From positions 117,924,001 to 117,988,000 of the forward strand of contig NC_042999.1 in assembly GCF_006345805.1 (NCBI RefSeq): 64,000 bases of DNA, read 5' to 3'. The notes beneath the pieces are model-generated. The model ran no database searches and was not told where the DNA came from. It saw only the letters and a program-made list of their open reading frames with translations. Every line of letters begins with the position of its first letter. Within the stretch, counting starts at the first letter, position 1. Source of the stretch: Octopus sinensis. Lineage: Eukaryota. Position numbers and translations under genes: made by a program. Below, one piece after another: positions 23,302 through 55,423 of this stretch.

Positions 23302-23310
23302 CACACACAC

Positions 23311-23344
<34 letters not shown>

Positions 23345-23882: not shown

Positions 23883-23961
<79 letters not shown>

Positions 23962-24174
23962 AGAGTTCACGAAAAAACAAAAGACGAAGACAGGTGGTGT
24001 ATAAAACAAACAGATGTATTAGTATAACGCTCAGGAATAGAAAAAGTCTTTTACGTTTCGAGAAAGAGACAGAAAAAAACAATGTGAGAAAAAATGTGTG
24101 TAGTGGCTACCGATCTATCAGGGCGACTGATATATATATATATATATGTGTGTGTGTGGTGTGTGTATATAATA

Positions 24175-24269
<95 letters not shown>

Positions 24270-26005: not shown

Positions 26006-26030
26006 TATATGTAAATATATATATGTGCAT

Positions 26031-26437: not shown

Positions 26438-26794
26438 TATTCGAACTGTTTATACTGAAATAGCTTTACTTTACGTTGGCTACGTGTGTTTAGAAACCGA
26501 TATACTTTAAGCAAATGACTCTCGAAAGATCCAGCTGACGAACAGCCTACGCGTGTGTCTGTTTACACCGCGTACCCCAAACAAACTTAATTTACTCAAG
26601 GGCAACATAAAATGTATTATTGTAAAATGTTTACCTTCGTAAATTCTCCAGATTACTTCAGTTTACATAGTATGTATATATATGTGTGTGTGTGTGCGTA
26701 TGCATATATATATATATATTATATATATATTATATATATATATATATAATAATATATATATAATATATATATGTATATATATATAGCATATATA

Positions 26795-28938: not shown

Positions 28939-29094
28939 AGTGACTGTGTGGTAAGTAGCCTGCTTACCAACCACACGGTTCCGGGTTCAGTCCCACTGCG
29001 TGGCACCTTGGGAAAGTGTCTTCTACTATAGCCTCGGGCCGACCAAAGCCTTGTGATTGGATTTGGTAGACGGAAACTGAAAAGAAGCCCGTCG

Positions 29095-29137
<43 letters not shown>

Positions 29138-29362
29138 ATGTGTGTGTGTGTGTGTGTTTGTGTGTCTGTGTTTGTCCCCCCAACATCGCTTGACAACCGA
29201 TGCTGGTATGTTTACGCCCCCGTTACTTAGCGGTTCGGCAAAAGAGACCGATAAAATATGTACTAGGCTTACAAAGAATAAGACTTGGGGTCGATTTGCT
29301 CGACTAAAAAAGGCGGTGCTCCAGCATGGCCGCAGTCAAATGATTGAAACAAGTAAAAAAGA
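28939..29362 (+). mobile_element. SINE family 1
   Basis: Collinear with the 14351 copy and abuts the right TIR of the Tc1 element. Confidence 0.9.
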
Positions 29363-30698
29363 GAGAGAGAGAGGTTATGAGAGGTAATGGTGTCAATAAG
29401 ACCCAAATGTGTCAGATTAAGGTATTTAAGAGTGAGCGTTTTGGAATGTGATAGATAGGTCAACGCTCAACCTGCAAGTTTTGCCTTAAGGAGTCACTTC
29501 ACATATTAAAGGACAACTCTCCAGCTCTGCTAAATAAACGTAACATGGCATTAAGCACATGCAGCCACCGCGTCTTTCACACATTCAATTTCTACCACAA
29601 ATCCACATACCTAAACGACCATGCAGTATATTTCCACAATACCCATTAGGTAATCACAATAACCTTATAAATCTATATTTTAACTCATGATCTGTCTCAT
29701 ACTCGAATATCACAACCATCTAATTATATTCGTGTGTATATGAGTGCATGTATATGTATGTGTGTGTGTATGTGTGTTTGTGTGAATGTATATATGTATG
29801 CAAGGTATATATACCTGCGTATACAGGGGCGATAATACATACAGATACACGCATATATGGATGTACATGTGTACATATACACATGTGTACGAGTTGTATA
29901 TGTAGATATTGATATGTATAAATATCTGTATAAATATATAAATACATGTCTAATATATACATTTGTATACACCTTCACGTATATATTTTATTCTACTACT
30001 AAGCATTGACCTGTCCAACCACCTAATCTATAGTCCATAAATTCTTCATTCCGCCATATTACTCCCTCTCTCTGTGCCCCATCACTTAGATTCTACCACT
30101 ACATAACTGACACGCCTTTACCTTTTACACTATTATACCTCTCTCTCTCTCTCTATCATCCCCATTCCTTCTATCTGACATTCCTTTACTCTTTATTATC
30201 TTTTTACACTCTAATATCTTTCTCTCTCTATCACCCTAATCTCCCCTCTCCTACTTTCAAGTTATCTTGACTGACCACTAACTGGTACACTTTCCCTGTC
30301 TTCGTCTCTGTAATATCTCTCTCCTTCTTTTTCTTTTTCTTTTTTTCTTTACTTTATTCCTCTCTTCGTATTTTTTCTTTTTTCTTTTTCTTCATTTTTT
30401 CTCTGTTCTTTATTCCCCCCTTCCTGTTTCAACTTGACCTCACAAATACATTCCCTACTTTTAGGTCATTTTAAATAAAACCCTCGATTCAATAGCACTA
30501 TGTACAAACTCTATACTTGGAATGACCATCTTTAAATACTATTGGAATTTACTCACAAGGTATTGGAATCTTATATGTATACCATTCTGCCTAAACAATG
30601 GCTCTACAAATGCAATATCCCTGCATATCCCACATCTATTTTCATTCCTCCACTTCACTCTCTATTTCTTATCTTATCTAAATTAACTATCTCACATC

Positions 30699-31910: not shown

Positions 31911-33418
31911 CTGCAGAGAGATTAAACTAACGGTTGAAAAACGGCGTCTTGCTAACCGCATACTGCTGTCAAAGATACTACGTATAATCCCCAGATAATA
32001 TTAAGTTTAGAGCTACATTACTTTAAAACAGCTTTAACATCCTACCAACCGTATTTTACAGCTTTATCTGGGAAATTGGAGACTCATTAAAAGTTTTCAA
32101 AGAATTTTTTTCCTTTAGATCACTCAATCTATTCTAATGAGTAAAAGAATATTTTTATATATTTTCTTAGTTATAAATGTCACATTAAAATCTATGCTTC
32201 TTATCAAACGACTTGACCGCCGTGTATTTCAACTTACTAGAAATAGTTGCCAAATCACCACCAAATAACTACCAACTACAATAACCACGCACTACACTGC
32301 GGTCTTTTAAAAGGTACACACTGTATAATGTTCAATGAATTTTGTTTAAAAATCAAATGGAGTCGATTAGAAAACCATTGATAATCAGCCTTTTTGATCT
32401 GGACTGTATAGGGCTAAACAGCAACAATAACAAAACCGATGAGAAAAGTCAAGGAAGCCAAAAGTTGAGCATCTGCGTGTTCCACACAATCTGCAAGGAT
32501 GACTAGCCACTTGTCCCTTAAATTTTACACTATCGTCTTAGAAAATGTTACGACATATTAAACAATGTAGTACTATATTACATTATGTTTGAATATAATC
32601 AATAATAGTTTGGTTTGATTAGGTCTAGTATCAAGGTAGCTAACTACTACCACTAGAACGTCTACAACTATGACAACTATGAATGCAACAACTAAAACAC
32701 AATTTTCTAACAGTAGTACAGGACCACAAATTTTAGGTGATCAAGCATTCATTCTAGGAGTCTTTTATCGACCCTCGTAGGAATGAAGAGTCTTGTGCTA
32801 CAATGACAATAATTCTAATCTAGTGCATTTTAAGCTTTGGGGTTGAAATAAACTAATCCAGTAATATGTAATGATAATCTTTATATATATAAAACTGAGA
32901 ATATGTATCTGTCTGTCTGTCTGTCTGTGTGTTTCCCTAAAACTTGAGAACTACACAACCAATTTCATTCAAATTTTACACATGCCTTACTTAGGGTCCA
33001 TGTAGTTTCGTGGGCAAAAAGAAATGTTCAACTTTTTGCCTAGGGCGAGCCCATAGCAATATCATATCTTCTCCACTATTTCAGTAGTACATGTTAAAAG
33101 TAAACAAAAAACATTTCTCTATTTTATGTCAGATACTTTCACTTTAACATAAAAAATAATAATAACAATTGAAGTATATGTAGTAAGTTTAATTAAAATC
33201 AAAAAAGTATAATATAATCGTAACATAAAAAAAGTAAAAATAGCAATTGGTATAAAATTGCATCCGTGACTTGAACTGAAAAGTGGTTTCTCATGAATGG
33301 GAATAATTAAAAATAAAATTAGCCTGCAGAAATGGAATAGTCCAGATGGATAATAAAAGATTAAATAAAGAAAAACTATTGTCTATAAAGTATACAATGT
33401 AGAGAAAAAAGAGATTTT

Positions 33419-35193
33419 CACCCACGGCGGAAATACCCAAGTGTGTTGTTATTGTGACTAGACGGAATTTTGTTGTGTAATTGATAATTATCGCGCGAGG
33501 CGTTGCCTCTCGTGTGGAAACCTTCCGAAGAGGTGAATTGACCCTCTAGTCATGGCGACTTACGCGGGGGTCACGGGAAAAAGAAGTAATGATTGCTCGA
33601 TAGTCGTGAAGGATGTTTTCTTTGAGAAGAATAAACTCAAAGAATACGAAAAGCTATTCAAAAGGGAGGGTGATAGCGTGAAGCTAATCCCCCCCGCGAA
33701 AGCAAAAGAGGACAAAGAAAACAAAACTGTAACGTATAGAACCCAGGACAAAAGTACAAAGAAACTGGCAAGAGTGGAGATAGCAGAGATCGAAAAATGT
33801 CTGGGAGACATAATGGATAAATCGACCTACGTGAGTAGAGGAAAAAAATTTGGTACGGTGGAGGTGAGATGTGCAACGGAAGAAATTGCAGCCTCACTGG
33901 CTACCACTGTTCTAAGAGGCGGAAACATTCATAATGTGGCCCTCATACAAGGGAAGAAGAGGGGTCCGGGTTAAAATCCCGATATACCCCCAGAAATAAA
34001 AACAGAGTGGCTGGCACAGCTATTCTGGGAGCAGCAGAAGAGGAAGTGGAGGTGGAATCCTTTAAGGAGTCCAATGCAGTAAACTGGAGAGGATATGGGT
34101 AGAACTGTGTTTGATGGCCAAAAAAGAGGACATTGAAAGGTTCCCCTACAGAATAGAAATCGAAGACGAGAAAACCCTCAGTGTAATTGTAGAGGGTAGA
34201 AAGCCAAACTGCTACTTGTGCGGGACAAGGGGGGCACATTAAAAAAGAGTGCCCGCTATACGAATTCATAGCGGAGTACGAGCAGGAACTTGAAGAAAGG
34301 AAGAATAAGGTAAATGAAAAAGAAAACATAGAAAAGGAGACAAAACAACAAGAGAAGGAAATAATAAGTCAACGAAAGAAAAAGATATAAAAGAAAAAGA
34401 AGAAATGGAACCAAAACAGAGTCAGGAAAAGAAAAAGGAAAAGAAACAACAGGAAAAAAACAAGAGAGAGATCAGAATCAACGAAAGAAAAGACGGACGC
34501 ACACAAAAAGAAAAAGAAAAGGAACATAAAACACGAGAGAAAGAGAGAACAGACAAAGACCAAAAGACAAGAGAAGGAGAGAAGAAAGAAGAAAAGAAAG
34601 CAAAAGAGAGAAAGAGAGAAACAAAGAGAGGAGAACAAGGAAGAAGTAAGCCCGAAAAGAAAAACGAGGGAAAACGTAGGACGAAAACAAGATTACTACA
34701 AGTTAATAACCTTCCATTTCACCCCTGAAATGAAGGAATTGACATGTAGTACGGAGGGACATGTGTGGGTCAACAGGATGACTGATCAGTGCAGGAGATG
34801 CTCTGATCCCCGAAGAAAGAGTCGCTGAGTTCCTCAGAGCAGCTGGAGAGAGTGTAATTTTTTACACGGGTGTTCGAATGAAGAGCGGCTGCCTGAGGGC
34901 TCAGTGATTGACTTTAGAGACTTGAAAGGTATTATGGAATACGTATAAAATTGTGAGAAGAGAGAGAAGAAAGAAGAAAAAAAAAAAAAAGAAAATATTG
35001 TAAAATATATGTGACGAAAATGTAACCTCTCGATTTCGGGGATCGAGTGGGCATTTACATCTCATTGTAAATATTCTTTCATATGTCATTTTTACTTTTA
35101 ATTTTTTCCTTTTCTTGTCATTTCGCTTTCTTAATTTAAGTTCCTCGATTGTATTGTCCCCTCTATGTTCGCCCCTTGTGGGTAATAATAAAA
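33419..35193 (+). mobile_element. ORF1-only non-autonomous retroelement, family A, unit 1
   Basis: Junction motif, structured 5' UTR, one ORF1-like gene and the shared 47-nt tail. Confidence 0.85.
33552..34948 (+). CDS. Family A ORF1/Gag-like protein: CCHC knuckle, E/K-rich linker, C-terminal domain (frameshifted)
   Basis: MATYAGV...RGKKFGTVEVRC...VEGRKPNCYLCGTRGHIKKECP...DLKGIMEYV*, assembled across indels and copies. Homologous to ORF1 at 44724. Confidence 0.75.
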
Positions 35194-36980
35194 CACCACG
35201 GCGGAAATTTACCCAAGTGTGTTGTTATCTGTGACTAGACAGGAATTTTGTTGTGTAAATTGATAATTATCGCGCGAGGCGTTTGCCTCTACGTGTGGAA
35301 ACCTTCCGAAGAAGGTGAATTGACCCTCTAGTCATGGCGACTTACGCGGGGGTCACGGGAAAGAGAAGTAATGATTGCTCGATAGTCGTAAAGGATGTTT
35401 TCTTTGAGATAAGAAAACTCAAAGAATACGAAAAGCTATTCAAAAGGGAGGGTGATAGCGTGAAGCTAATCCCCCCCGCGAAAGCAAAAGAGGACAAAGA
35501 AAACAAAACTGTAACGTATAGAACCCAGTGACAAAAGTACAAAGAAACTGGCAAGAGTGGAGATAGCAGAGATCGAAAAATGTCTGGGGGAGACATAATG
35601 GATAAATCGACCTACGTGAGTAGAGGAAAAAAATTTGGTACGGTGGAGGTGAGATGTGCAACGGAAGAAAAATTGCAGCCTCACTGGCTACCACTGTTCT
35701 AAGAGCGGAAACATTCATAATGTGGCCCTCATACAAGGGAAGAAGAGGGGTCCGGGTTAAAATCCCGAATATATACCCCCAGAAATAAAAACAGAGTGCT
35801 GCAACAGCTATTCTGGGAGCACAGAAGAGGAAGTGGAGGTGGAATCTTTAAGGAGTCCAATGCAGTAAACTGGAGAGGATATGGGGTAGAACTTGTTTGA
35901 TGGCCAAAAAGAGGACATTGAAAGGTTCCCCTACAGAATAGAAATCGAAGACGAGAAAACCCTCAGTGTAATTGTAGAGGGTAGAAAGCCAAACTGCTAC
36001 TTGTGCGGGACAAGGGGGCACATTAAAAAAGAGTGCCCGCTATACGAATCATAGCGGAGTACGAGCAGGAACATGAAGAAAGGAAGAATAAGGTAAATGA
36101 AAAAGAAAACATAGAAAAGGAGACAAAACAACAAGAGAAAGGAAATAATAAGTCAACGAAAGAAAAAGATATAAAAGAAAAGAAAGAAATGAACCAAAAC
36201 AGAGTCAGGAAAAGAAAAAGGAAAAAGAAACAACAGGAAAAAACAGAGAGAGATCAGAATCAACGAAAGAAAAGACGGCACACAAAAAGAAAAAGAAAAG
36301 GAACATAAAACACGAGAGAAAGAGAGAACAGACAAAGAACCAAAAAGACAAGAGAAGGAAGAAGAAAGAAAAGAAAGCAAAAAAGAGAGAAAGAGAAACA
36401 AAGAGAGGAAACAAGGAAGAATAAGCCGAAAAGAAAAACGGAAAAACGAGGGAAAACGTAGGACGAAAACAAGATTACTACAAGTTATAACCTTCCATTT
36501 CACCCCTGAATGAAGGAATTGACATGTAGTAGTAAGGAGGGACATGTGTGGGTCAACAGGATGACTGATCAGTGGCAGGAGACTGCTCTGATCCCCGAAG
36601 AAAGAGTCTCGCTGAGTTCCTCAGAGCAGCTGGAGAGAGTGTAATTTTTTACACGGGTGTTCGAATGAAAGAGCGGCTGCTGAGGGCTCAGTGATTGACT
36701 TTAGAGACTTGAAAGGTATTATGGAATACGTATAAAATGTGAGAAGAAGAGAAGAAAGAACAAAAAAAAAAAAAAAAGAAAATATTGTAAAATATATGTG
36801 ACGAAAATGTAACCTCTCGATTTCGGGGATCGAGTGGGCATTTACATCTCATTGTAAATATTCTTTCATATGTCATTTTTACTTTTAATTTTTTCCTTTT
36901 CTTGTCATTTCGCTTTCTTAATTTAAGTTCCTCGATTGTATTGTCCCCTCTATGTTCGCCCCTTGTGGGTAATAATAAAA
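35194..36980 (+). mobile_element. Family A unit 2 (ORF 35334-36735, frameshifted)
   Basis: Near-identical to unit 1. Starts CACCACGGCGGAAA. Confidence 0.85.
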
Positions 36981-38800
36981 CACCACGGCGGAAATTTACC
37001 CAAGTGTGTTGTTATCTGTGACTAGACAGGAATTTTGTTGTGTAAATTGATAATTATCGCGCGAGGCGTTTGCCTCTACGTTGGAAACCTTCCGAAGAAG
37101 GTGAATTGACCCTCTAGTCATGGCGACTTACGCGGGGGTCACGGGAAAAGAAGAAGGAATGATTGCTCGATAGTCGAAAGGATGTTTTCTTGAGAAGAAA
37201 ATAAACTCAAAGATACGAAAAGCTATTCAAAAGGGAGGGTGATAGCGTGAAGCTAATCCCCCCCGCGAAAGCAAAAGAGGACAAAGAAAACAAAACTGTA
37301 ACGTATAGAACCCAGGACAAAAGTACAAAGAAACTGGCAAGAGTGGAGAGATAGCAGAGATCGAAAAATGTCTGGAGAACATAATGGATAAATCGACCTA
37401 CGTGAGTAGAGGAAAAAAATTTGGTACGGTGGTACGGTGGAGGTGAGATGTGCAACGGAAGAAATTGCAGCCTCACTGGCTACCACTGTTCTAAGAGCGG
37501 AAACATTCATAATGTGGCCCTCATACAAGGGAAGAAGAGGGGTCCGGGTTAAAATCCCGAATATACCCCCAGAAATAAAAACAGAGTGGCTGGCAACAGC
37601 TATTCTGGAGCAGCAGCAGAGAAGAGGAGTGGAGGTGGAATCCTTTAAGGAGTCCAATGCAGTAAACTGGAGAGGATATGGGGAGAGTGAACTGTGTTGA
37701 TGGCCACAAAAGAGGACATTGAAAGGTTCCCCTACAGAATAAAATCGAAGACGAGAAAACCCTCAGTGTAATTGTAGAGTAGGTAGAAAGCCAAACTGCT
37801 ACTTGTGCGGGACAGGGGGCACATTAAAAAAGAGTGCCCGCTATACGAATTCATAGCGGAGTACGAGCAGGAACTTGAAGAAAGGAAGAATAAGGTAAAT
37901 GAAAAAGAAAACATAGAAAAGGAGACAAAACAACAAGAGAAAGGAAATAATAAGTCAACGAAAGAAAAAGATATAAAAGAAAAGAAAGAAATGGAACCAA
38001 AACAGAGTCAGGAAAAGAAAAAGGAAAAAGAAACAACAGGAAAAAAACAAGAGAGAGATCAGAATAAAGAAAAAGAAAAGACGGCACACAAAAAGAAAAA
38101 GAAAAGGAACATAAAACACGAGAGAAAGAGAGAACAGACAAAGAAAAAACCCAAAAAAAAAAAAAAAAAGACAGAGAAGGAGAAGGAGAAGAAGAAAAGA
38201 AGCAAAAAAGAGAGAAAGAGAGGAACAAAGAGAGGAGAACAGGAAGAAGTAAGCCCGAAAAGAAAAACGAGGGAAAACGTAGGACGAAAACAAGATTACT
38301 ACAAGTTAATAACCTTCCATTTCACCCCTGAAATGAAGGAATTGACATGTAGTACGGAGGGACATGTGTGGGTCAACAGGATGACTGATCAGTGGCAGGA
38401 GACTGCTCGATCCCCGAAGAAAGAGTCGCTGAGTTCCTCAGAGCAGCTGGAGAGAGTGTAATTTTTTACACGGGTGTTCGAATGAAAGGCGGCTCTGCCT
38501 GAGGCTCAGTGATTGACTTTAGAGACTTGAAAGGTATTATGGAATACGTATAAAATTGTGAGAAGAGAGAGAAGAAGAAAGAAAAAAAAAAAAAAAAAAG
38601 AAAATATTGTAAAATATATGTACGAAAATGTAACCTCTCGATTTCGGGGATCGAGTGGGCATTTACATCTCATTGTAAATATTCTCATATGTCATTTTTT
38701 ACTTTTAATTTTTTCCTTTTCTTGTCATTTCGCTTTCTTATTTTAAGTTCCTCGATTGTATTGTCCCCTCTATGTTCGCCCCTTGTGGGTAGTAATAAAA
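36981..38800 (+). mobile_element. Family A unit 3 (ORF 37120-38553, frameshifted)
   Basis: Near-identical to unit 1. Tail variant GGGTAGTAATAAAA. Confidence 0.85.
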
Positions 38801-40607
38801 TCCCACGGCGGCGGAAATTTACCCAAGTGTGTTGTTATCTGTGACTACTAGACAGGAATTTGGTTGTGTAAATTGATAATTATCGCGCGAGGCGTTTGCC
38901 TCTACGTGTGGAAACCTTCCGAAGAAGGTGAATGACCCTCTAGTCATGGCGACTTACGCGGGGTCACGGGGACGGGAAAGAGAAGTAATGATTGCTCGAT
39001 AGTGGAAAGGATGTTTTCTTTGAGAAGAATAAACTCAAAGAATACGAAAAGCTATTCAAAAGGGAGGGTGATAGCGTGAAGCTAATCCCCCCCGCGAAAG
39101 CAAAAGAGGACAAGAAAAACAAAACTGTAACGTATAGAACCAGGACAAAAGTACAAAGAAACTGGCAAGAGTGGAGATAGCAGAGATCGAAAAATGTCTG
39201 GGAGACATAATGGATAAATCGACCTACGTAGAGTAGAGGAAAAAAATTTGGTACGGTGGAGGTGAGATGTGCAACGGAAGAAATTGCAGCCTCACTGGCT
39301 ACCACTGTTCTAAGGCGGAGGAAACATTCATAATGTGGCCCTCATACAAGGGAAGAAGAGGGGTCCGGGTTAAAATCCCGAAATACCCCCAGAAATAAAA
39401 ACAGAGTGGCTGGCAACAGCTATTCTGGGAGCAGCAGAAGAGGAAGTGGAGGTGGAATCCTTAAGGAGTCCAATGCAGTAAACGGGAGAGGATATGGGGT
39501 AGAACTGTGTTTGATGGCCACAAAAGAGGACATTGAAAGGTTCCCCTACAGAATAGAAATCGAAGACGAGAAAACCCTCAGTGTAATGTAGAGGGTAGAA
39601 AGCCAAACTGCTACTTGTGCGGGACAAGGGGGCACATTAAAAAAGAGTGCCCGCTATACGAATTCATAGCGGAGTACGAGCAGGAACTTGAAGAAAGGAA
39701 GAATAAGGTAATGAAAAAGAAAACATAGAAAAAATAGAAAGGACAAACAACAAGAGAAAGGAAATAATAAGTCAACGAAAAAAAAGATATAAAAGAAAAG
39801 AAAGAATGGAACCAAAACAGAGTCAGGAAAAGAAAAAGGAAAAAGAAACAACAGGAAAAAAACAAGAGAGAGATCAGAATCAAACGAAAAGAAAAGACGG
39901 CGGCACACAAAAAGAAAAAGAAAAGGAACAAAAAAACACGAGAGAAAGAGAGAACAGAAAAGAACCAAAAAGACAAGAGAAGGAAGAAGAAAGAAAAGAA
40001 AGCAAAAAGAGAGAAAGAGAGAAACAAAGAGAGGAGAACAAGGAAGAAGTAAGCCCGAAAAGAAAAACGAGGGAAAACGTAGGACGAAAACAAGATTACT
40101 ACAAGCTAATAACCTTCCATTTCACCCCTGAATGAAGGAATTGACATGTAGTACGGGGAGGGACATGTGTGGGTCAACAGGATGACTGATCAGTGGCAGG
40201 AGACTGCTCTGATCCCCGAAGAAAGAGTCGCTGAGTTCCTCAGAGCAGCGGGGAGAGAGTGTAATTTTTTACACGGGTGTTCGAATGAAAGAGCGGCTGC
40301 CTGAGGGCTCAGTGATTGACTTTAGAGACTTGAAAGGTATTATGGAATACGTATAAAATGTGAGAAGAGAGAGAAGAGAGAAAAAGAAAAAAAAAAAAAA
40401 AAAGAAAACATTGTAAAATATATGTGACGAAAATGTAACCTCTCGATTTCGGGGATCGAGTGGGCATTTACATCTCATTGTAAATATTCTTTCATATGTC
40501 ATTTTTTACTTTTAATTTTTTCCTTTTCTTGTCATTTCGCTTTCTTATTTTAAGTTCCTCGATTGTATTGTCCCCTCTATGTTCGCCCCTTGTGGGTAGT
40601 AATAAAA
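38801..40607 (+). mobile_element. Family A unit 4 (ORF 38946-40356, frameshifted)
   Basis: Near-identical to unit 1. Tail variant as in unit 3. Confidence 0.85.
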
Positions 40608-42551
40608 TCCCACGGCGGAAATTTACCCAAGTGTGTTGTGAGTTATTTTTTGCATGTGAAACTTTGGAAAAAAACTGTTAAAAAAAATTGTCAAAAATTG
40701 AATCGCGCGAGGCGTTTGCCGCTGCGTGTTTGAACCTTTTATAGAAGGTGTGTCGACCCTCAAGTCATGGAGACTTACGCGGGGGTCGCCACAACAAAAA
40801 GTGACGAGTCACTTAGAATAAAAGAAGTGTTCTTTAGAAAAGAACAATTGAAGGAATACGAGAAGTTCGTCAAAAGGGAGGGTGACAGCGTGAAGCTGGT
40901 CCCGCCTGTGGAAACAATAGAAGAAAAAAATAACAAGACGATAACGTATAGAACGCAAGATAGAAACACGAGAAAACTGGTGAGAGTGACGATTGAAGAA
41001 ATAGAGAAATGTCTGGGGGACATCATGAAAAAAGCGACTTTTGTAGACAGAGGAAAGAAATATGGTACGGTGGAGGTGAGATGCGCAACAAGGAAAGAAG
41101 TGGCGGCCTCATTGGCTTCCACTGTCCTGAAAGCGGAAAATTTCACCATGTGGCCGACGTATAAAGGAAGACGAGGGGTACGGGTAAGAGTCCCAAAGGT
41201 GCCCCCAAATATTAAAACAGAAATGCTGGTAACAGCCATTATTGGGGCAGCAAAAGAGGAAGTAGAAATAGGGTCAATTAAGGAGACGAACGTTGTAAAT
41301 TGGAAGGGATTCGGAGTCGAGTTGTGGCTGATGGCCACAATTGAAGACATCGAAAGATTTCCCTTCCAAATAGAAATAGAAAACGAAAAAACAATTAGTG
41401 TAATAGTGGAAGGCAGAAAACCGAATTGCTACCTGTGCGGCTCAAGAGGGCACATAAAAAAGGAATGTCCGCTGTATGAATTCACAGCGGAGCAAAAAGA
41501 GACACAAAGTGGAGAGAAGGAAAACGAACACGAGGAAAGAACAGCGAAAACAAGGAAAAGGAAATAACGGAGAAACAACAAGAGAAGGGAAGTAACAGCG
41601 CACTGAAGGAAAATGAAAACAAAGGGAAGAAGATAGTAGAAAAGGAGCAAAATTCACAGGGTGCAGAAGTAGAGGAGAAGGAGCCAAGGCAGAAGCAAGA
41701 GAAAGAAAAGGAAAGTACATTAAAGGAAAGAGAAAAAGCAGGAAAAGAACAAGAGAAGGAACAGAACCAAGAGAAAGGAAAAGATGGTATGCAAAAAGGA
41801 AAAGAAACAACAGGAAAGGAACTTAAGGCACAGGGTAGAGAGACGGCAGACAAAGAGCCAAAAAGACAAGAGAAGGAAAAAGAAAGAAGAGAAAGCAAAA
41901 AGAGAGAAAGAGAGAAACCGAGGGAGGAGAAAAAAGAGGAAGTAAGTCCTAAGAGAAAAACTAGAGAAAACGCAGGTACGAATAGAAAATTCAAATACTA
42001 TGGAACGTTGATCCATCACAAACACTGTGAGGAGATGGAAAATTTAATAAGCGAAACAAACGGATATACGTGGGTCAGGATGGGCACCGAATGGAAAGAA
42101 ACAGGTGCACTCGTCCACGAGAACGACGCCGAGGCGTTCATCGAGGCAGCTGGCGAGAACGTGTTAAAACATATGAAATGCCGACTTCCAAGGTGGCCTC
42201 GAACGATGGAAATTTACTCAGATTTGGTAGACATAATGGAGTATATATAAAAGAAAAGGTATTATGAAAACTTTAATTTGGAAATGATAAAAGAACTTTA
42301 AATTCGGAAAAAAAAAAAAAAAAAAAAAAGAATGTTGAACTTTGTAAAACTTTTTGAAATGTATGTTGAAAATGTATAAAATGTTTTATTTGAAAATATT
42401 GTTGACGAATAAAAATAAATGACGAAATGTAACCGCTCGATTACGGGGATCGAGTGGGCATTGCACCACATTGTACAAACTTCATAATTCATTATTCATT
42501 TTCCCGATTGTATTGTCCCATCTATGTAGCCCCTAGTGGGTAATAATAAAA
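40608..42551 (+). mobile_element. ORF1-only non-autonomous retroelement, family B, unit 5
   Basis: Same architecture as family A with diverged sequence. Tail at 42506-42551. Confidence 0.85.
40767..42250 (+). CDS. Family B ORF1/Gag-like protein (one frameshift near 41532)
   Basis: METYAGV...CYLCGSRGHIKKECP...DLVDIMEYI*. Confidence 0.8.
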
Positions 42552-44488
42552 CACCACGGCGGAAATTTACCCAAGTGTGTTGTGAGTTATTTTTTGCATG
42601 TGAAACTCTGGAAAAAAACTGTTAAAAAAATTGTCAAAAATTGAATCGCGCGAGGCGTTTGCCGCTGCGTGTTTGAACCTTTTATAGAAGGTGTGTCGAC
42701 CCTCAAGTCATGGAGACTTACGCGGGGGTCGCCACAACAAAAAGTGACGAGTCACTTAGAATAAAAGAAGTGTTCTTTAGAAAAGAACAATTGAAGGAAT
42801 ACGAGAAGTTCGTCAAAAGGGAGGGTGACAGCGTGAAGCTGGTCCCGCCTGTGGAAACAATAGAAGAAAAAAATAACAAGACGATAACGTATAGAACGCA
42901 AGATAGAAACACGAGAAAACTGGTGAGAGTGACGATTGAAGAAATAGAGAAATGTCTGGGGGACATCATGAAAAAAGCGACTTTTGTAGACAGAGGAAAG
43001 AAATATGGTACGGTGGAGGTGAGATGCGCAACAAAGGAAGTGGCGGCCTCATTGGCTTCCACTGTCCTGAAAGCGGAAAATTTCACCATGTGGCCGACGT
43101 ATAAAGGAAGACGAGGGGTACGGGTAAGAGTCCCAAAGGTGCCCCCAAATATTAAAACAGAAATGCTGGTAACAGCCATTATTGGGGCAGCAAAAGAGGA
43201 AGTAGAAATAGGGTCAATTAAGGAGACGAACGTTGTAAATTGGAAGGGATTCGGAGTCGAGTTGTGGCTGATGGCCACAATTGAAGACATCGAAAGATTT
43301 CCCTTCCAAATAGAAATAGAAAACGAAAAAACAATTAGTGTAATAGTGGAAGGCAGAAAACCGAATTGCTACCTGTGCGGCTCAAGAGGGCACATAAAAA
43401 AGGAATGTCCGCTGTATGAATTCACAGCGGAGCAAAAAGAGACACAAAGTGGAGAGAAGGAAAACGAACACGAAGGAAAGAACAGCGAAAACAAGGAAAA
43501 GGAAATAACGGAGAAACAACAAGAGAAGGGAAGTAACAGCGCACTGAAGGAAAATGAAAACAAAGGGAGAAGATAGTAGAAAAGGAGCAAAATTCACAGG
43601 GTGCAGAAGTAGAGGAGAAGGAGCCAAGGCAGAAGCAAGAGAAAGAAAAGGAAAGTACATTAAAGGAAAGAGAAAAAGCAGGAAAAGAACAAGAGAAGGA
43701 ACAGAACCAAGAGAAAGGAAAAGATGGTATGCAAAAAGGAAAAGAAACAACAGGAAAGGAACTTAAGGCACAGGGTAGAGAGACGGCAGACAAAGAGCCA
43801 AAAAGACAAGAGAAGGAAAAAGAAAGAAGAGAAAGCAAAAAGAGAGAAAGAGAGAAACCGAGGGAGGAGAAAAAAGAGGAAGTAAGTCCTAAGAGAAAAA
43901 CTAGAGAAAACGCAGGTACGAATAGAAAATTCAAATACTATGGAACGTTGATCCATCACAAGCACTGTGAGGAGATGGAAAATTTAATAAGCGAAACAAA
44001 CGGATATACGTGGGTCAGGATGGGCACCGAATGGAAAGAAACAGGTGCACTCGTCCACGAGAACGACGCCGAGGCGTTCATCGAGGCAGCTGGCGAGAAC
44101 GTGTTAAAACATATGAAATGCCGACTTCCAAGGTGGCCTCGAACGATGGAAATTTACTCAGATTTGGTAGACATAATGGAGTATATATAAAAGAAAAGGT
44201 ATTGTGAAAACTTTAATTTGGAAATGATAAAAGAACTTTAAATTCGGAAAAAAAAAAAAAAAAAAGAAATGTTGAACTTTGTAAAACTTTTTGAAATGTA
44301 TGTTGAAAATGTATAAAATGTTTTATTTGAAAATATTGTTGACGAATAAAAATAAATGACGAAATGTAACCGCTCGACTACGGGGATCGAGTGGGCATTG
44401 CACCACATTGTACAAACTTCATAATTCATTATTCATTTTCCCGATTGTATTGTCCCATCTATGTAGCCCCTAGTGGGTAATAATAAAA
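42552..44488 (+). mobile_element. Family B unit 6
   Basis: Near-identical to unit 5 with a few substitutions. Confidence 0.85.
42710..44190 (+). CDS. Family B ORF1/Gag-like protein (one frameshift near 43568; consensus of units 5 and 6 ~493 aa)
   Basis: The 288-aa and 153-aa ORF-track pieces join when the base present in unit 5 is restored. Confidence 0.8.
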
Positions 44489-44723
44489 CACCACGGCGGA
44501 AATCAATTTTTTGCGTTATTAGTAAGTTGATATATAATTTTGCTCTCGTACTATTATCTCTGTTATTATATACTGTTGATCTACCTGTTTTTGTCTATTG
44601 TTGTCTAACGGACGAAGCCAGCCTTCGCGCGAAGACTTCGCGTTGGTGTTCCCCCCCTCAGTGGGGGAAAACTACAAGTAATTTGGATTTACCAAAGGCT
44701 TGTTATAAAGCCATTTGTTCAAG

Positions 44724-46094
44724 ATGGAGTCCCCCATCACTTATTCGCCCGTGACGAGCGAGGATGAATACCCGGCGTTGTCGCCAAGTAAAAAAGAGGC
44801 GTTGTCGCCAAGAAAAAAAGAGGCGCTGTCGCCGAAGAAAAAAGAGGCGGCGTCGCCCAAGAAAATGGAAAAACCAGTACCAGCATCAACTCCAGCAAAA
44901 AAATTCGCTGAAGTGGCTGGGAAAAAGATCAAAAAAATAAATATAGACAATTTTAAAAAATTTGCAGACTGCGTAAAAAAAGAAGGCACAGAAGTGACTG
45001 TGGCCACAAACATACAAATACATGACGATATAGAGAAAAAAAGAATAATATATAAAACTTACGACACAACGAAAAAAATGATCCAAAAAATCGAAGAAAA
45101 AAAAATAGAGTCTTGTCTAAAACCGTTTATGGACAAAATATAAACAGAGGAAAAAGATACGGCACAGTGGAGGTGCGTTTTACTACGGAGGATATAGCGA
45201 AGAAACTATCGATGGAGCCGATCAAAGCGGAAAACATTGTCTTACTACCATTGTATAAAGGAAAAAGGACGTCAAAAATTTCAATGAACAACATACCGCC
45301 AGAGGCTGATGCTGAATGTCTGGTGGCAGCAGTGATGGTAGGTCTGGAGGAAAAAATAAACATCCTCCAGGCCACAGTGGAGGAAGAGGATTTTTGGAAA
45401 GGCCAAAAAATAGTGATAGCCATTCAGGCGGAGGTGCAAACACTGGAAGAAATTCCAGAAACGGTAAAGATTAGTGAAGACGAGAAAATAACAGTGTTCG
45501 TGGAGGGCAGGAAACCGAGGTGCTTCGGCTGCGGCAAGAAGGGGCATGTAAGGGCGGAATGCCAACCCCAACCCAAACCGCAGGAAGCACCTAAGCCAAA
45601 AGAAAAAGAAGACAATGTGTCACCAGAAGCAGCGTCAGATGGCCCAGAAGGGAAGACTGAAGGTGTGGAGGTGACGGTGACAGCAGAACCAGCGGCGGGG
45701 AAAAAAAAAGAGCGAGGAAAAGATAAATGAGGAGGGGTGGAAAAAAATTATCGGAAAAAAAAAGAAAAACGGAAACCACCCCTCCCAGAGTAATTTTAAA
45801 AAAGAAAAAAGAGTCAATGAACTCATATATGGCCGTAAAGGCAGCAAATAGCAGACTCGGAAACGTGTTGGCAGCCATGGCCAAAGTGGAGAAAGTAGAG
45901 AAAAAAAACGACTTTGTAATTTACAGAATAGGCCGGAAGGATTACGGCGGATAAAGTCAGAATTCTTCCATGACGTAGGCCCACTTAGATTGGATGTGAC
46001 ATCTCCACATATATTCGAGGGCCTACGTCAGACTCCCCCACGAGGCCCAGAAAAAGAGTTAGAAGAACAAGAGAAAACCGAACCACTGATATAA
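44724..46094 (+). CDS. ORF1p nucleic-acid-binding protein (frameshifted)
   Basis: SPxK repeats, RGKRYGTVEVRF, VEGRKPRCFGCGKKGHVRAEC (CX2CX4HX4C). The 3' end is inferred across frameshifts. Confidence 0.8.
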
Positions 46095-46102
46095 GGTAAG
46101 TA

Positions 46103-49100
46103 ATGGATTACATTTATGTTGGTTGTTTGAATGTGCGCGGCCTGGGAGCAGACTGGAAGCAAGGTCGCTTCCTGCATGATATCAGGTCGCGTAATTTAGA
46201 TGTTATTGTTGCTACAGAAACCCGGTTAGAGGGGCCAAGAGGTCTACTCCCGCTGTTTGACGGCTACGAGAGTTTTTTATCTCCTGGCAGTCCTACAGGC
46301 GGGAGTGGGGTGTTGGTCCTATTAAAAAGAAACCGGGTTTCTGAGAAAAAGTTAATTTTTGCAGATCCAGAAGGTAGGCTGGTCGTCATGGATTTGACGT
46401 TCAGTAACGGTAAAGTTATCAGACTGGTTGCAATTTACGCACCCAACCATACAGGGCAAAGTGATTATTTTCGTGAACTAGAAAACTTTCTTGGTACTTC
46501 GCATTCATTAGTGGTGCTAGGAGACTTTAACACAATTTGCAAAGCGGATGTAGATTATGTTGGCTCGTGTCCAGATAGAAAAGGCAACAGTGGCTTCATG
46601 GAACTGCTAAGCCGCTTTGAGCTAGCAGATCCTTATAGGCTGGAATTTCCGAACGCTCCATTGTGGACATGGTCAAACAGCGACGGATCTTCCAGGTCAT
46701 ATTTAGATAGAATACTAATTAGAAAAGTAGACAGTAAAATAGCTAAGTGTCCACAGTTTTACCCGATCAGCTACAGTGATCATAAAATGGTCACTTGTAA
46801 GCTTGACATAGATAAGGTTAAAAATAGAGGATCCGGTTACTGGAAACTTAATACGTCCCTTTTGGCGATTAAGGAGTACAAAGACCGGATTAGGAATATA
46901 ATTCAGAGGGCACTATCTGGTACCATCATTATAACAAATGGTGGTACGCCCTCAAACGAGCCATCAAGTTTGAGTCTATTAGATATAGCATAGGAGTAGT
47001 GGCTAGAGAGGCTAGAAGGGAAACTACTCTAGTTAAGGAATTAGAGGAAGCCATGAAAACTGGCTCTGCGGCTCAGGTGGCGTCCAAGAGACTGGTGTTA
47101 AACCAGCACCTCGAGGCCAAACACATGGGCTGCATTGTCAGGGCTAGAATCCGTCATATGGGATGTGAAGGAATCAACGCCGTGAGATGGGCCCGAGTGG
47201 TGGAAGCTCAGCATGGTAACGATGCCACGATTCGATCTTTGACGAACCAACAAGGTGAGTTGATAAACGAACCCGAGGAGATGTGTGAGGCCTTTCAGGA
47301 GCACTTCGCTCAGCTTTTCGGTGAGTGCGGCGGACTGGATAGGAGGAGGGCCTTTACGGACCTACTCGACGGTCTGCCGCGCTTATCGGGGCGAGATGCG
47401 GAGGGCTGTGAAGGGCCAATCACGCCTGGGGAGGTGTTTGAGGCAATGGCGGACTGCGGCGCGGGCAAGGCGCCGGGTTTGGATGGTCTGCCCTATGAGT
47501 TATATAAGAGTATGCCAGACTTGTTCGGGCACCTACTGGCGGAGGTCTATGCGAACTGGCAGCAGAACGGGCTTATACCCAGATCTGTGCGCCGGGGAGT
47601 AGTGACTCTCGTCAGAAAGGACCCGAGCAAGGGGGAGTGCATTGATAATTTCAGGCCCATCACTCTGCTAAACACAGAGTTGAAGATTTTGGCCAAAGTG
47701 TTATCGAAAAGATTGGCGCGTGTCGCGGATGGTCTGATCGGAGAGGCACAGACATGTGCCGTTCCGGGCAGATCCATTCAGGATAATCTCCATCTAATGC
47801 GGTACACTATAGAGGGGTTTAATAGTGATTCTGGCAAGGGTGGGGCACTGGTCCATTTAGACCAATCTAAAGCTTTTGATAGGGTCGACCATCGTTACCT
47901 GGTGTCTGCCCTGGCACAGTTCGGGCTGAGCCTTGGCTTCCTCAGGTGGATTATCCAAATTTATGATAACATCGACTCGGTAGTTCGGGTGAACGGCTTC
48001 TTGTCGAAGCCGTTCAAAATCAAACGCTCGGTTCGTCAAGGGTGTCCGCTCTCCCCGCTTTTGTACGTGATGGCTCTTGAGCCATTACTGCGAAAACTGA
48101 GCGGCATCCCGAGACAGCCAGGTAATGGAAAATCAGTGTCAGCGTACGCGGATGACATCACCATCATCGTAACCGAAATGGACCACCTATGTAAAGTAGG
48201 CAAGGCCATAGAGGTTTACGAGACGGTGACAGGAGCAAAAGTTAATCGCGAAAAGTCAGTCGGCTTGCAACTCGGCACCTGGAGAGGCAAGTCGATGCCT
48301 CCTGACAGCGTCGTGGGACGTTGGACGGAGGGTCCGATTAAACTGCTAGGGGTCTGGTTCGGTCCAGACCTCCAAATAGAGAAGAATTGGGGCGAGGTAA
48401 CGAGCAAGGTGGCTGCAGTAGCCAAGACCTGGTCTTGGCGGTGGCTATCCCTGAAAGGGAGGGCGGAGGTGGCCATGTGTTTATCGCATCGGTTATCACC
48501 TACCGCCTTTCCGTCGTTCCTTGCCCTGATTCGTGGTTGATCAAGTTGGAAAGACAGCTCTTCTACTTCTTGTGGAAGGGCGGGAAACCACTTGTGAAAC
48601 GCTCTACTTGCTGTCAACAACCGTTAAAGGGTGGGCTAGGGATGCCTTGGCTGATGATGCGCAGACATGCGCTGAGGTTAAGACATCTGTGGCTCTACCT
48701 GGATGGTGAACGGGTGTGGTCTTCGCTAGCAAAACTGATGTTTCCCAAGTTCACTAGTTTCGGTGGATGGGAAACCTGGCTGAATCGTAGATCGAAACTT
48801 GGTACTTGGTACACGGAGTGTCGCAAGGCTCTCCTGCTATTCCGTCGCTCGGGCAACGCCTGCGGTGGGGGTTCCACCACATTCCTCTATAGAGGGTTGG
48901 TAGAGGCGGAATGTGAAGATACCTTGGGGGAAACCCTAGGTCTCGACGATAATCAGCTGGCCAGTCTGTTCCGACGTACGTTCGAGCCGAGGACACTGGA
49001 CAACTTCCAGAAGTCCCTGGCATGGCAATGCTACAGAGGAGCTCTACCTGTTCGGGATAAACTCGCAAGGCACGGTGGCCAAGACAGTCCGATATGTCCA

Positions 49101-49496
49101 AGATGCGGGCGGGATAGGGAAACCGTCCCGCACGCGATTGTTCATTGTCCGGACGTGTCTGAGGTGTGGGTTTATGCCGAACACCTGTTGTCAGGTACAC
49201 GAAGAGTACAGCTGTCGACTGAGTCGATTACAAAAATTGACCCACCGGATTTCCTCGTGAATGAAGGTAAGTTTCGTTTTCTCGTTGTAGTAGCAATTGC
49301 GAAAGAGGTGATATGGAAGACGAGAATGAAAGGTTTACAGTCAGGCAAGTTCATCTCCGGCCCTGGTTTGATGAACTATTTCATCTTTCACCTGAAAAGG
49401 AAGATAGGGCTGGAATGAATATGCCTGACTAGGAGAGTGTATGAAGAACGATGGAAGGATGTAGCACGAAAGTTGCGAGTGAAAGATACAACATAA
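46103..49496 (+). CDS. ORF2p: APE endonuclease, reverse transcriptase, C-terminal zinc finger (two frameshifts; in-frame TGA at 49416)
   Basis: LNVRGL, ETRL, GDFN, YLDRI, SDH (APE). PGLDG, FRPITLLN, DQSKAFD, RQGCPLSP, YADD (RT). CPRC...ETVPHAIVHC (Zn finger). Confidence 0.93.
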
Positions 49497-50239
49497 ATGT
49501 AATACCAAGTGCAACCAAAAGTATCAGTGGGGAGGCGGGGCTCGTGGGGTCCGAGCTAAACCCGCACCCACTCCACCCGTAACGTCTTCCGGTCTGTCCC
49601 ATCATTCGATTTCTGTCCATTTATTGTAATTCATGAAAATTTTTAAAATTCGATTTAGTGTAAAAACCCATTCGTTTGTCTGACCCAGATTGTATTGTCC
49701 CATCTATGTTCGCCCCTTGTGGGTAATAATAAAATCACATGGAGGAAAGCACCTTCGAAAAGTGTCTTGGTGTGACCATGAAAGATATCTAATCAGAGGT
49801 GGTAAATTCGCCACAATAGAAGCAAGGTTCGAGTCAACGGAGCGTACAAGGGAGTACTCGACTCGAACTTGCAAAGTGGAAATATTTTATATCTGGGACG
49901 TAGGACGTCCCGGAAAAAGTTAAATATGCCCCCCTCCCGAAGTAGATGTAGGCTGGATTGTAGCCACATTTCTATACAAGAGGGAGGACAAGATACAATT
50001 GATTGTAATTACAAGAGACGGGCTAACAATTCCAGTCCGTTATATATTTTGAGTATTGTTATCACTAGCGATATCAAGATATAACTTTGTATTTTGTATT
50101 TTATGTGTAGATGTATATATATAGATGTACATGTAATATGTACACATATATATACACACATTTATACATGCACTAGCACTATGACCCGGCAACGACGGGT
50201 CTTTAATGCTAGTAATGTAATATTTGTAGCACTATTTAA

Positions 50240-50341
50240 GGTGGTGAACTGGCAGAATCGTTAGCGCGCCGAGCGAACTGCTTTGCGTTATTTCGTCCGT
50301 TTTTACGTTGTGAGTTCATATTCCGCCGAGATTGACTTTGC
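50240..50341 (+). mobile_element. 5' half of SINE family 2
   Basis: GGTGGTGAACTGGCAGAATCGTTAGC...GAGTTCATATTCCGCCGAG. Confidence 0.75.
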
Positions 50342-50342
50342 A

Positions 50343-50920
50343 TGGATATAGCAACAACATGGTAGACTACAATCTTCGTCTTCACAGTTAAGTCTTTGAT
50401 GTCTTTATCATCCCTTCTCCTCAATCCAAGCCCACCCTCTACGACGGTATGAATGTTCATCGCGAACTACTCTTGGAATTCTCATTTCCATATCGACTGA
50501 AGCAAGCCTATGTACTCGCCCCTTGTTGCAATGATCTTTGAAACTCCTATGGATCAGCCAGGAGTGGATACAGATATCGTTTTGATGAAGTTTGCCATGG
50601 TTTCGCTCAAAGAAACTCACCAATACCAAGCGAATCTCAAAACTCCAATATGCTGATTACAAAGTGGCACCCAGCTATTCATGCTTAGAACTGCAATATG
50701 CAGTCAATAATTTTACCAATGCGTATCACCATTTTGGGCTCACCCTAAATACTAAAAGACCTCAAATACTCATCCTGCCAGCCACGAATTCTGGCTTTCA
50801 GGATTCTAACATCGTCATTTCGGAAACACCATTTGAACAATTTAATCTTTTTGCATACCTTAGAAATATGCTCTCCACCAAATACAATTCTGAGAAAGAA
50901 GTGGAGCGAAGGAATAGGAA
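50343..50920 (+). mobile_element. Decayed RTE-like LINE RT fragment
   Basis: ISKLQYADY...LQYAVNNF..AY..FGLTLN.K...FAYL..MLS resembles RT domains 5-7 of the RTE clade. Confidence 0.6.
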
Positions 50921-54472: not shown

Positions 54473-54943
54473 ACTTGTCTAATCTATATCTTTCTGTCTG
54501 TCTTCTTTGTCTGCCTCTCTCTCTCTCTCACTCTCTCTCTCTATATATATATACACACACATATAGTTGTGCATGCATACGCATACACACATTAAAAGAC
54601 TTGGAGTGAAAAAGAGAGAAAGAGAAAGAGAAAGAGAAAAAAGGAGACCATGAGAGTGGGAAACAATGAGAGTAACAGACATACACAAAAAAGGAAGATA
54701 TATTAATTTCGTAACCAAGTCAAAAAATTCAGTAGTTGGAAATGAAACCCCAACTTTATTTTAGTTCTGTCGTTTTCACAAATTAGATGGTTATTGTAAT
54801 GACGAGCTATTTAAAAAATTAATAACCCCAACCCCGTTCGAAAAATAGGGCACACTCCGGGATTATTAGACAAACATATAACCGATAACACAGCATAATA
54901 ATATATGATTTCTTTAAATTGATATCTTTAATAATATCTTTAA

Positions 54944-55367
54944 TTTGTTTCAGTCATTTGACTGCGGCCATGCTGGAGCACTGGCCTCAGTCGAACAAAT
55001 CGACCCCATGATTTACTCGTTGTAAGCCTAGTGCTTAACCTATCGTCCTCTTTTGTTGAACCAAGTTACGGGGACGTAAACACACTAACATCGGTTGTCA
55101 AGCGATGGTTGGGGGACAAACACATCGGTTGTCAAGCTATGGTGGGGGGACAAACACAGACACAAAACGCATACATACACACACACATGCACACACACAC
55201 ACATATAATACGACGGGCTTCTTTCAGTTTCCGTCTACCAAATCCATTCACAAGGCTTTGGTCGGCCTGAGGCTATAGTAGAAGACGCCTAAGATGCCAC
55301 GCAGTGAGACTGAACCCGGAACCATGTAGTTAGTAAGCAAGCTACTTACCACACAGTCACTCTTGCG

Positions 55368-55369
<2 letters not shown>
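54944..55369 (-). mobile_element. SINE family 1 with an internal ~34-bp tandem duplication
   Basis: ACATCGGTTGTCAAGC.ATGGT.GGGGGACAAAC occurs twice at ~55089-55155. Confidence 0.85.

Positions 55370-55420
<51 letters not shown>

Positions 55421-55423
<3 letters not shown>

What the first reader, a model, noticed from the sequence alone, without database searches (positions are those of the whole stretch)
33419..49748. 14-nt junction motif may be a self-renewing landing pad rather than an ordinary TSD
Seen: CACCACGGCGGAAA at 35194, 36981, 42552 and 44489. TCCCACGGCGGAAA at 40608, and at 38801 with an extra GCG. CACCCACGGCGGAAA at 33419. The host-side right flank (49735) is a degenerate TCACATGGAGGAAA (11/14 match to the TCCC form). 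The outer flanks share only TCAC exactly, so they are not a perfect TSD. Inference: the first element inserted at an imperfect site and brought a perfect target on its own 5' end. Later elements would insert there and regenerate it, so the array grows leftwards and the full-length unit is oldest.
Basis: partly seen in the sequence, partly recalled or inferred. Interest (0 to 1): 0.85.

Follow-up and report, generated by a model that had tools for sequence, protein, structure and literature searches.

The report
Retrotransposons that inherit their landing site
A family of animal LINE retrotransposons seems to copy the short piece of DNA it last landed on into its own front end and pass it to its offspring, so each new copy brings a fresh landing site and long head-to-tail chains build up inside another mobile element.

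Summary
The motif is at every stated coordinate. It joins six ORF1-only units and one full-length L1/Tx1-type LINE, head to tail, inside a ~1 kb Helitron-like repeat. The 14-mer is composite: 2 nt ending the upstream unit plus a 12-16 nt leader of the next. The right flank has not decayed: 348 empty host sites read GAAC|ACATGGAGGAAAGC, and no empty site with the CCACGGCGG form was found. In 17 of 25 host loci with both outer ends read, the 5' leader differs from the 3' flank at 2 or more of 12 bases, so it arrived with the element. But the family also makes ordinary TSDs: two insertions at unrelated sites show a 16-nt TSD followed by a carried NGAAC plus leader. Best reading: the leader is an earlier TSD, carried on the RNA and inherited; at a similar target it replaces the new TSD. 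Leftward growth fits this locus but is not general. Each component has precedent (R1, R2, Tx1-Mar); heritable, drifting TSD lineages shared across element types were not found in print. RNA ends are inferred, not shown.

The parts
32878..33416 (+). Left half of the host repeat, a ~1 kb non-coding Helitron-like element (starts TC after an A)
   Evidence: Joined to the right half in 16 empty copies; termini
33417..33421 (+). TTCAC, in register with the host's TGAAC: 5' extension carried by the leftmost unit
   Evidence: 0 exact empty sites with TTTTCAC against 348 with TTTGAAC; the same TTCAC at three other filled host copies
33422..35195 (+). Unit 1, ORF1-only type A (leader CCACGGCGGAAA, broken ORF1, shared 3' tail, ends CA)
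35196..36982 (+). Unit 2, type A
36983..38802 (+). Unit 3, type A
38803..40609 (+). Unit 4, type A (leader with extra GCG; units 1-4 are 93-95% alike, differences mostly indels)
40610..42553 (+). Unit 5, ORF1-only type B (~71% to type A; CCHC zinc knuckle)
42554..44490 (+). Unit 6, type B (99.2% to unit 5); ORF1 from 42710, 37% identical over 143 aa to the full-length unit's ORF1
44491..49736 (+). Unit 7, full-length LINE: ORF1 with zinc knuckle (from ~44724), ORF2 with APE, RT and zf-RVT (46103-49418, in three frames in this assembly), ends TC
   Evidence: Pfam; L1 ORF2p is the nearest solved relative; contigs of other runs differ by one-base indels at both ORF2 frame changes
49688..49734 (+). 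47-nt 3' tail shared by all seven units (also ending at 35193, 36980, 38800, 40607, 42551, 44488), ending in AATAAA with no poly(A)
   Evidence: 92-98% between unit 7 and units 1-6; 283 exact pattern hits in G000; 0 of 151 contexts with a poly(A) tract
33491..33498 (+). TCGCGCGA, once in each unit's 5' UTR (33491, 35270, 37057, 38883, 40703, 42646, 44625) and nowhere else in the window; candidate internal promoter element (inference)
49737..49752 (+). Host target ACATGGAGGAAAGCAC, identical to the common empty-site sequence
49737..50212 (+). Right half of the host repeat, ending in a GACCCG..CGGGTC hairpin (50183-50201) and CTAG before a T

Best explanation
A target-preferring L1/Tx1-type LINE and its ORF1-only partners nick the host repeat at GAAC|ACATGG and cut the other strand about 16 nt downstream. 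Their RNA starts about 5 nt upstream of the donor copy's own left TSD, so every full-length cDNA ends in 'donor flank + donor TSD' (the leader). At an unrelated site both pieces stay (new TSD, then carried leader) or are joined through a short shared word. At a similar site (the host repeat, or another unit's leader) the carried copy pairs with the target overhang and only one copy remains: the donor's, the target's or a chimera. So a TSD becomes a heritable leader that drifts by mutation (ACATGGAGG > ACATGGCGG > ACACGGCGG > CCACGGCGG), passes between element types, and gives every inserted unit a re-usable target at its 5' end. Arrays grow mostly at the outer left junction, with local duplication or multi-unit copying adding runs. 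Shown: the junction sequences, the 16-nt TSDs, the carried leaders, the host preference. Inferred: RNA start and end, heteroduplex step, order of events.
For: Empty site fixed: 15 of 16 empty copies read ACATGGAGGAAA, 348 exact copies. Motif absent from empties: 9 of 9 new AACNCACGGCGGWM hits were unrelated sequence; the search ACAYGGCGGAAAGCACC gave 7 hits, all ACATGG, 5 of them empty hosts, which supplies the first step of the series. Paired outer ends: 5 identical, 3 with one difference, 17 with 2 or more, of 25. Unrelated sites: 16-nt TSD + CGAAC/TGAAC + leader at L174 and L209; TSDs of 18, 10, 11, 13 and 4 nt at five more; L195 has the host motif on its 5' end at a non-host site. True TSDs at the host: the private variant ACATAGAGG on both sides at C8:83.13; host bases GAAAGC inside leaders of L127, L135, L155, L163. 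Chimera at L183. Leaders shared across element types within an array, with different leaders in different arrays (L190, L199, L237, L238), including an unrelated 16-mer from a second host repeat (C3:35.93, C5:32.53). In-register change of the five upstream bases at 13 of 34 filled left junctions (two of the 13 are probably one locus assembled twice), against 0 of 104 internal junctions with GAAC or TTCAC. Precedent for each step in R1 and R2 (PMC2718515, PMC3774820).
Against: No RNA end was observed: one search listed no run on record as RNA and laid contigs only. 5'-truncated copies did not show the expected 16-nt TSD: none was found at L194, L197, L198 by a search for 8 or more nt near the junction, L196 has a long match 490 nt upstream instead, and L205 and L207 have lost host sequence. 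Only 2 of 7 non-host insertions show the clean 16+5 pattern. The loci were pulled by searches built on these motifs, so the counts are not a random sample, and some loci are duplicated in the assembly. 2 of 16 empty hosts also differ in the five upstream bases, and CGAAC and TGAGC empties were not searched genome-wide. A 5-nt flap with three mismatches could be trimmed at internal junctions, which weakens the 0 of 104. Array-private substitutions in type B units show that units are not all independent insertions. The assembly has many indel errors in the arrays.
Confidence: 0.68

Rival explanations
1. Ordinary R1-style TSD arrays: each insertion duplicates the target, later copies insert into the TSD, and mismatched leaders come from later gene conversion between copies.
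For: 16-nt TSDs exist; 5 of 25 paired loci are identical on both sides; tandem R1 and SINEU-3 arrays form this way (PMC2718515, PMC4494074); type B units show mosaic haplotypes.
Against: 17 of 25 paired loci mismatch, among them single insertions (L181, L183, L201); conversion would have to cross the element's edge and stop 5 nt into the host; it cannot put NGAAC + leader after a complete TSD at unrelated sites (L174, L209) or the host motif at L195.
Confidence: 0.08
2. One reading: the motif is a fixed part of the element's 5' end that mimics the endonuclease's best target, and no real TSD is made.
For: The motif is on the element side in this window and at C1, C7, C17, C5; leaders are re-used.
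Against: The same element bodies carry many leaders (34 distinct 12-mers in 90 internal contexts, several of them sequencing variants), some unrelated to the motif; TSDs are made; the host form is the common target.
Confidence: 0.07
3. The leader is carried, but the arrays arise mainly in single events or afterwards: RT jumps from one RNA's 5' end to the next RNA's 3' end, multi-unit read-through RNAs are copied as blocks, or unequal exchange multiplies units. Position then says little about age.
For: Three loci in different host copies share the order A..B..F with the same subfamilies; an A-F pair recurs at C7:96.72 and C7:96.99, and twice in L237; type B units share array-private substitutions; L155-L157 share one junction deletion.
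Against: Unit numbers differ between arrays; the best type A copies are closer between arrays (1 change in 1.8 kb) than type B (5-11 in 1.9 kb) or full-length copies (19 in 5.2 kb), as expected if A came last (noisy). Compatible with the best explanation as a contributing process.
Confidence: 0.3
4. The array moved as cargo of the Helitron-like host or by segmental duplication.
For: Similar arrays on three chromosomes-scale contigs; C7:96.72 and C7:96.83 look like one duplicated block.
Against: Host halves of six such loci differ by 2.6-9.7% substitutions while the best-read units differ by under 1%; outer flanks are unrelated.
Confidence: 0.03

Closest known systems
Tx1-Mar and SINEU of crocodilians (Kojima 2015, PMC4494074; read: passages and parts 3-4 of 5)
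   Same: Tx1-clade LINEs and non-autonomous partners that prefer sites in a DNA transposon; 16-nt TSD; tandem insertions with a TSD between; one subfamily carries a 5' extension derived from the host transposon.
   Different: Host here is Helitron-like; partners encode ORF1; the carried piece is the TSD itself plus 5 nt, is on nearly every full-length unit seen, and replaces the new TSD at most host loci.
R1 tandem arrays and melanogaster-type R1 junctions (Stage and Eickbush 2009, PMC2718515; read: passages and section 15)
   Same: Arrays formed by insertion into the 14-bp TSD at the 5' end of a resident copy; transcripts proposed to carry target sequence at the 3' end; 'ISR' junctions with a TSD followed by carried upstream target resemble L174 and L209.
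   Different: There the carried 5' piece ends upstream of the nick and those R1s have few or no tandems; the 28S target is invariant, so no leader lineages are visible. Here the carried piece spans the nick and includes the TSD.
R2 elements whose RNA begins in upstream 28S sequence (Eickbush et al. 2013, PMC3774820; read: passages)
   Same: Carried target on the cDNA is proposed to form a heteroduplex with the target; junction variants can be included in the RNA and propagated; tandem duplications arise when pairing fails.
   Different: R2 has a restriction-like endonuclease and an HDV-like ribozyme; no Rfam ribozyme was found here; R2 does not regenerate a downstream target on each copy.
HAL1 (half-L1) elements (Bao and Jurka 2010; recalled, cited in PMC4494074, paper not held)
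   Same: ORF1-only non-autonomous LINEs of L1 origin.
   Different: Here at least three ORF1-only types share a 47-nt tail and a target with a Tx1-like partner and form mixed arrays.
Xenopus Tx1L in Tx1D (as described in PMC4494074; Christensen et al. 2000 not held); HeT-A 5' tags (recalled, no call)
   Same: Tx1L: LINE specific for a site in a DNA transposon. HeT-A: head-to-tail arrays whose RNA takes upstream sequence with it.
   Different: No inherited TSD is known to me for Tx1L; HeT-A adds to chromosome ends without an endonuclease target.

Membership tests
L1 group, Tx1 clade | ORF2 with APE endonuclease, RT and C-terminal zinc-binding region | tested here: met
   Pfam Exo_endo_phos, RVT_1, zf-RVT; L1 ORF2p best PDB match for both domains
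L1 group, Tx1 clade | ORF1 with CCHC zinc knuckle (recalled as typical of Tx1) | tested here: met
   zf-CCHC above cut-off in type B, below cut-off in unit 7; knuckle visible in the alignment
L1 group, Tx1 clade | RT groups with Tx1 references in a phylogeny | tested here: inconclusive
   No tree with curated references was possible. RT scores 208 bits against a protein named 'Transposon TX1 149 kDa' (P0076, 38% identity) and 111 bits against human L1; that name is an automatic annotation
L1 group, Tx1 clade | Target preference (over 20% of flanks in one repeat, the criterion of PMC4494074) | tested here: met
   Of the first 30 loci of the tail search, 10 end in the host site, 12 at another unit's 5' end (one, L045, in an older-type array), 8 elsewhere; two of those 8 later proved to be another unit or tail
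HAL1-type non-autonomous LINE | Encodes ORF1 only, related to the partner's ORF1 | tested here: met
   No ORF2 in units 1-6; 37% over 143 aa to unit 7 ORF1
HAL1-type non-autonomous LINE | Mobilised by the partner's ORF2 protein | not testable with these tools
   Shared 47-nt tail, terminus and target are indirect
Helitron (host repeat) | 5' TC, 3' hairpin and CTRR, between A and T, no TSD | tested here: met
   Window and most of 15 empty copies read; 13 show the hairpin and CTAG-T, the 5' end is blurred by TA tracts in several
Helitron (host repeat) | Autonomous Rep-helicase partner | not tested
   No search made; the repeat is non-coding
R1-type pure TSD array | Spacer between units and both outer flanks are the same host sequence | tested here: not met
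   Window and 17 of 25 paired loci mismatch
R2-type co-transcript processing | HDV-like ribozyme at the 5' end | tested here: inconclusive
   No Rfam ribozyme at E up to 1 over 32800-50400; folds of the 5' ends gave z from 0.5 to -2.4; a divergent ribozyme is not excluded

The most novel reading that the evidence does not exclude
The RNA carries a copy of the target at both ends (the AATAAA lies 2-5 nt before a tail-less, exact 3' junction, so cleavage would fall in the downstream flank), and pairing of that flank helps choose the site. Target preference would then be partly written in RNA and inherited: a lineage that picks up a new TSD seeks that sequence again, which would explain why arrays keep leaders as unlike as ACATGGAGGAAA and AACTGAATACTCGTCA. 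Hints: 0 of 151 poly(A) tails; at non-host sites leader and target agree at the variable third base in 4 of 5 readable cases (L174, L208, C23, L195 yes; L209 no). That would be a self-reprogramming APE-type LINE.
Probability: 0.2. Interest if true: 0.85.

Novelty: new variant of a known kind. Interest (0 to 1): 0.62.

Why it matters
How LINEs join their 5' end and prime the second strand is still open, and the R1/R2 evidence comes from an invariant rDNA target where donor and target copies cannot be told apart. Here the target is a variable repeat, so donor-type, target-type and chimeric junctions can be read directly across many loci. It also shows a route by which a TSD becomes a heritable part of an element, moves a host-derived target to new places, and lets autonomous and ORF1-only elements build mixed arrays of 15-35 kb inside another transposon. 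If RNA flanks steer the site, the family is a candidate for programmable insertion studies.

Tried and rejected
Right flank decayed: rejected. Motif comes from another host repeat: 9 of 9 further pattern hits were chance sequence. Host variant TTTTCAC|ACATGG: 0 exact hits. Helitron hitch-hiking: rejected. C27:17.93 and the right end of L199, first read as host-DNA TSD sites, proved to abut 5' ends of older full-length relatives and were dropped from the non-host count. Expression: no RNA holder listed; contigs laid cannot show starts or ends. Ribozyme: no Rfam hit. Structure in the 47-nt tail: folds not better than shuffles (z -0.7 to 1.2). Host promoter: a TATAAA lies 38 nt upstream of the left junction, about 33 nt from the inferred RNA start, but the DNA is AT-rich, the spacing varies by 3 nt among hosts, and leaders from a second host exist, so it is left as a lead. 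Relatives in other organisms: none in metagenome contigs. Earlier findings of the scan: none. Literature searches that did not turn up this arrangement: (listings only, open-access library); Repbase and subscription papers could not be seen, nor did I open supplements of PMC4494074, whose junction figures may hold similar cases. Searches for type B and type C whole units did not complete, so those types are under-sampled.
Full report
Observation. The motif stands at all eight places named. Six exact and one near hit of CCACGGCGGAAA lie in the window against 1.55 expected by shuffling. They cut 33422-49736 into seven head-to-tail units: four of about 1.8 kb (type A), two of 1.94 kb (type B, about 71% to A) and one of 5.25 kb. 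A and B encode only an ORF1 with a CCHC knuckle; the long unit has ORF1 and an APE-RT-zf-RVT ORF2, nearest to L1 ORF2p among solved structures and closer to a protein annotated as Tx1 (208 against 111 bits). Type B ORF1 is 37% identical to the long unit's ORF1 over 143 aa. All units end in one 47-nt tail. G000 is a 2.7 Gb animal genome; my guess of its group rests on recall and on no call.

The empty site. The array sits in a ~1 kb repeat with Helitron-type ends. Of 30 loci pulled with the right flank, 16 are empty, 13 filled and 1 was not read; 15 of the 16 empties read ..AC|ACATGGAGGAAAGC. The exact 27-mer occurs 348 times, the window's left form TTTTCAC|ACATGG 0 times. So the right flank is the intact target. 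A GGCGG host variant exists (5 empty of 7 hits), none with ACACGG; 9 of 9 further hits of AACNCACGGCGGWM were unrelated DNA.

Carried or duplicated? For 25 host loci both outer ends could be read. The first 12 nt after the left junction equal the right flank in 5, differ at one base in 3 and at two or more in 17 (sequences). Host loci with only one end read were left out, as was the second C7 block that looks duplicated. The 17 include single insertions (L181, L183, L201), so the leader came with the element. The five bases upstream of the junction are also changed in register at 13 of 34 filled left junctions (TTCAC, CGAAC, TGAGC and two singletons). But the family does make TSDs. Seven near full-length insertions at non-host sites have duplications of 16, 16, 18, 10, 11, 13 and 4 nt. 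In L174 and L209 the 16-nt TSD is followed by CGAAC or TGAAC and a complete leader, that is, by a copy of a donor's host junction. In L208 and C23 the TSD runs into the leader through a short shared word. L195 carries the host motif at a non-host site. At the host, C8:83.13 has a private variant on both sides, and several leaders contain the host's GAAAGC. L183 is a chimera. Against a uniform 16-nt cut, six 5'-truncated copies showed no TSD next to the junction, and two of them had lost host DNA.

Leaders are lineages. Internal junctions show at least six recurrent leader families on the same bodies. Within an array, different element types share the array's own variant: AGCTGGCTCCAAGCTA on A and full-length units (L237), ACCTGGCGCCAAGCTA on A and B (L238), ATGCCAGTCTTCATTG on B and a further type (L199). 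Two arrays use a 16-mer from a second host repeat. The window's motif ends a series ACATGGAGG, ACATGGCGG, ACACGGCGG, CCACGGCGG, each seen on elements and the first two also in empty hosts. The order of the series is inferred from the host match.

Mechanism (inferred). Nick at GAAC|ACATGG; second cut about 16 nt on; RNA beginning about 5 nt before the donor's left TSD. Where the cDNA end resembles the overhang they pair and one copy survives, usually the donor's; where it does not, both stay. This follows the heteroduplex models for R2 and melanogaster-type R1 (PMC3774820 passages; PMC2718515 passages and section 15). The exact, tail-less 3' junction just after AATAAA suggests that the RNA also runs into the 3' flank, as proposed for R1. 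No RNA end was seen.

Direction of growth. Left host junctions often show the carried extension, while 0 of 104 internal junctions show GAAC or TTCAC and 89 of 104 have a standard tail; of the 15 others most are point or indel differences in the tail, and six (four events) have losses next to the junction. That fits addition mostly at the left end. Arrays on C1 (A..A, nine B, full-length) and C7 repeat the window's order and subfamilies in host copies 2.6-9.7% apart, which excludes transport by the host; the best type A copies are the least diverged between arrays. However, full-length units are leftmost at C17, C12 and C27 and internal at C7, B units share array-private changes, and A-F pairs recur, so duplication in place, block copying or template jumping probably add units too. 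'Full-length oldest' is plausible here, not shown.

Comparison. Nearest is Tx1-Mar/SINEU: a Tx1 group that prefers a DNA transposon, with a 16-nt TSD, tandem copies and one host-derived 5' extension (PMC4494074; passages and parts 3-4 of 5). R1 gives TSD-seeded tandems, R2 gives carried target and propagated junction variants. I found no report of the TSD itself being routinely carried, drifting and exchanged among autonomous and ORF1-only partners (searches; listings of open papers only; Repbase not available). One octopus repeat paper lists recently active L1-Tx1 families without junction detail in the passages seen (PMC13282606).

Verdict. Real and general in this genome; a new variant of known target-specific LINE behaviour. 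Interest 0.62; the RNA-guided reading has probability 0.2.

Noticed in passing
L040, L049, L231, L234; window 50233-50370: Short copies of a related tail (ending AGTAAAGAAA-TA) sit in a different, very abundant repeat, one copy of which follows the host at ~50233; run X15 has joints from the tail to ~50243. A sister family may target that repeat.
   Followed up: no
L286, L254, L259, L293, L297, L213 (C3:88.83, C3:35.93, C5:32.53, C6:112.82, C9:30.64): A second host repeat takes insertions at several nearby positions and supplies leaders; it contains TTTCAC just upstream of one site, a possible source of the window's TTCAC extension.
   Followed up: partly
L016:1-1498; L199; L294; L295: A third ORF1-only type (C, tail ending AATAAAGAAA-TA), a further type about 71% to B, and older full-length relatives (76-85% to unit 7) share the tail style, the TCGCGCGA word and the arrays.
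   Followed up: partly
window 33384: TATAAA in the host repeat 38 nt upstream of the left junction, roughly promoter distance from the inferred RNA start.
   Followed up: no
window 20838-25302: Tandem duplication of about 2.3 kb, 94.6% alike; may be real or an assembly artefact.
   Followed up: no
G000 C1:69.553-69.558 Mb (L217); C7:96.72 and 96.83 Mb; C9003 and C2:86.73: Repeated left junction across an assembly gap, and whole arrays present twice: probable assembly duplicates.
   Followed up: partly
window 46930 and 48474: Both ORF2 frame changes coincide with one-base indels in contigs of other runs, so they are probably assembly errors and the unit may be intact.
   Followed up: partly
window 14340-14750, 19347-19824, 20795-21260, 26030-26440, 28940-29369, 54937-55421: Several copies of a ~430-bp dispersed repeat in both orientations.
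   Followed up: no
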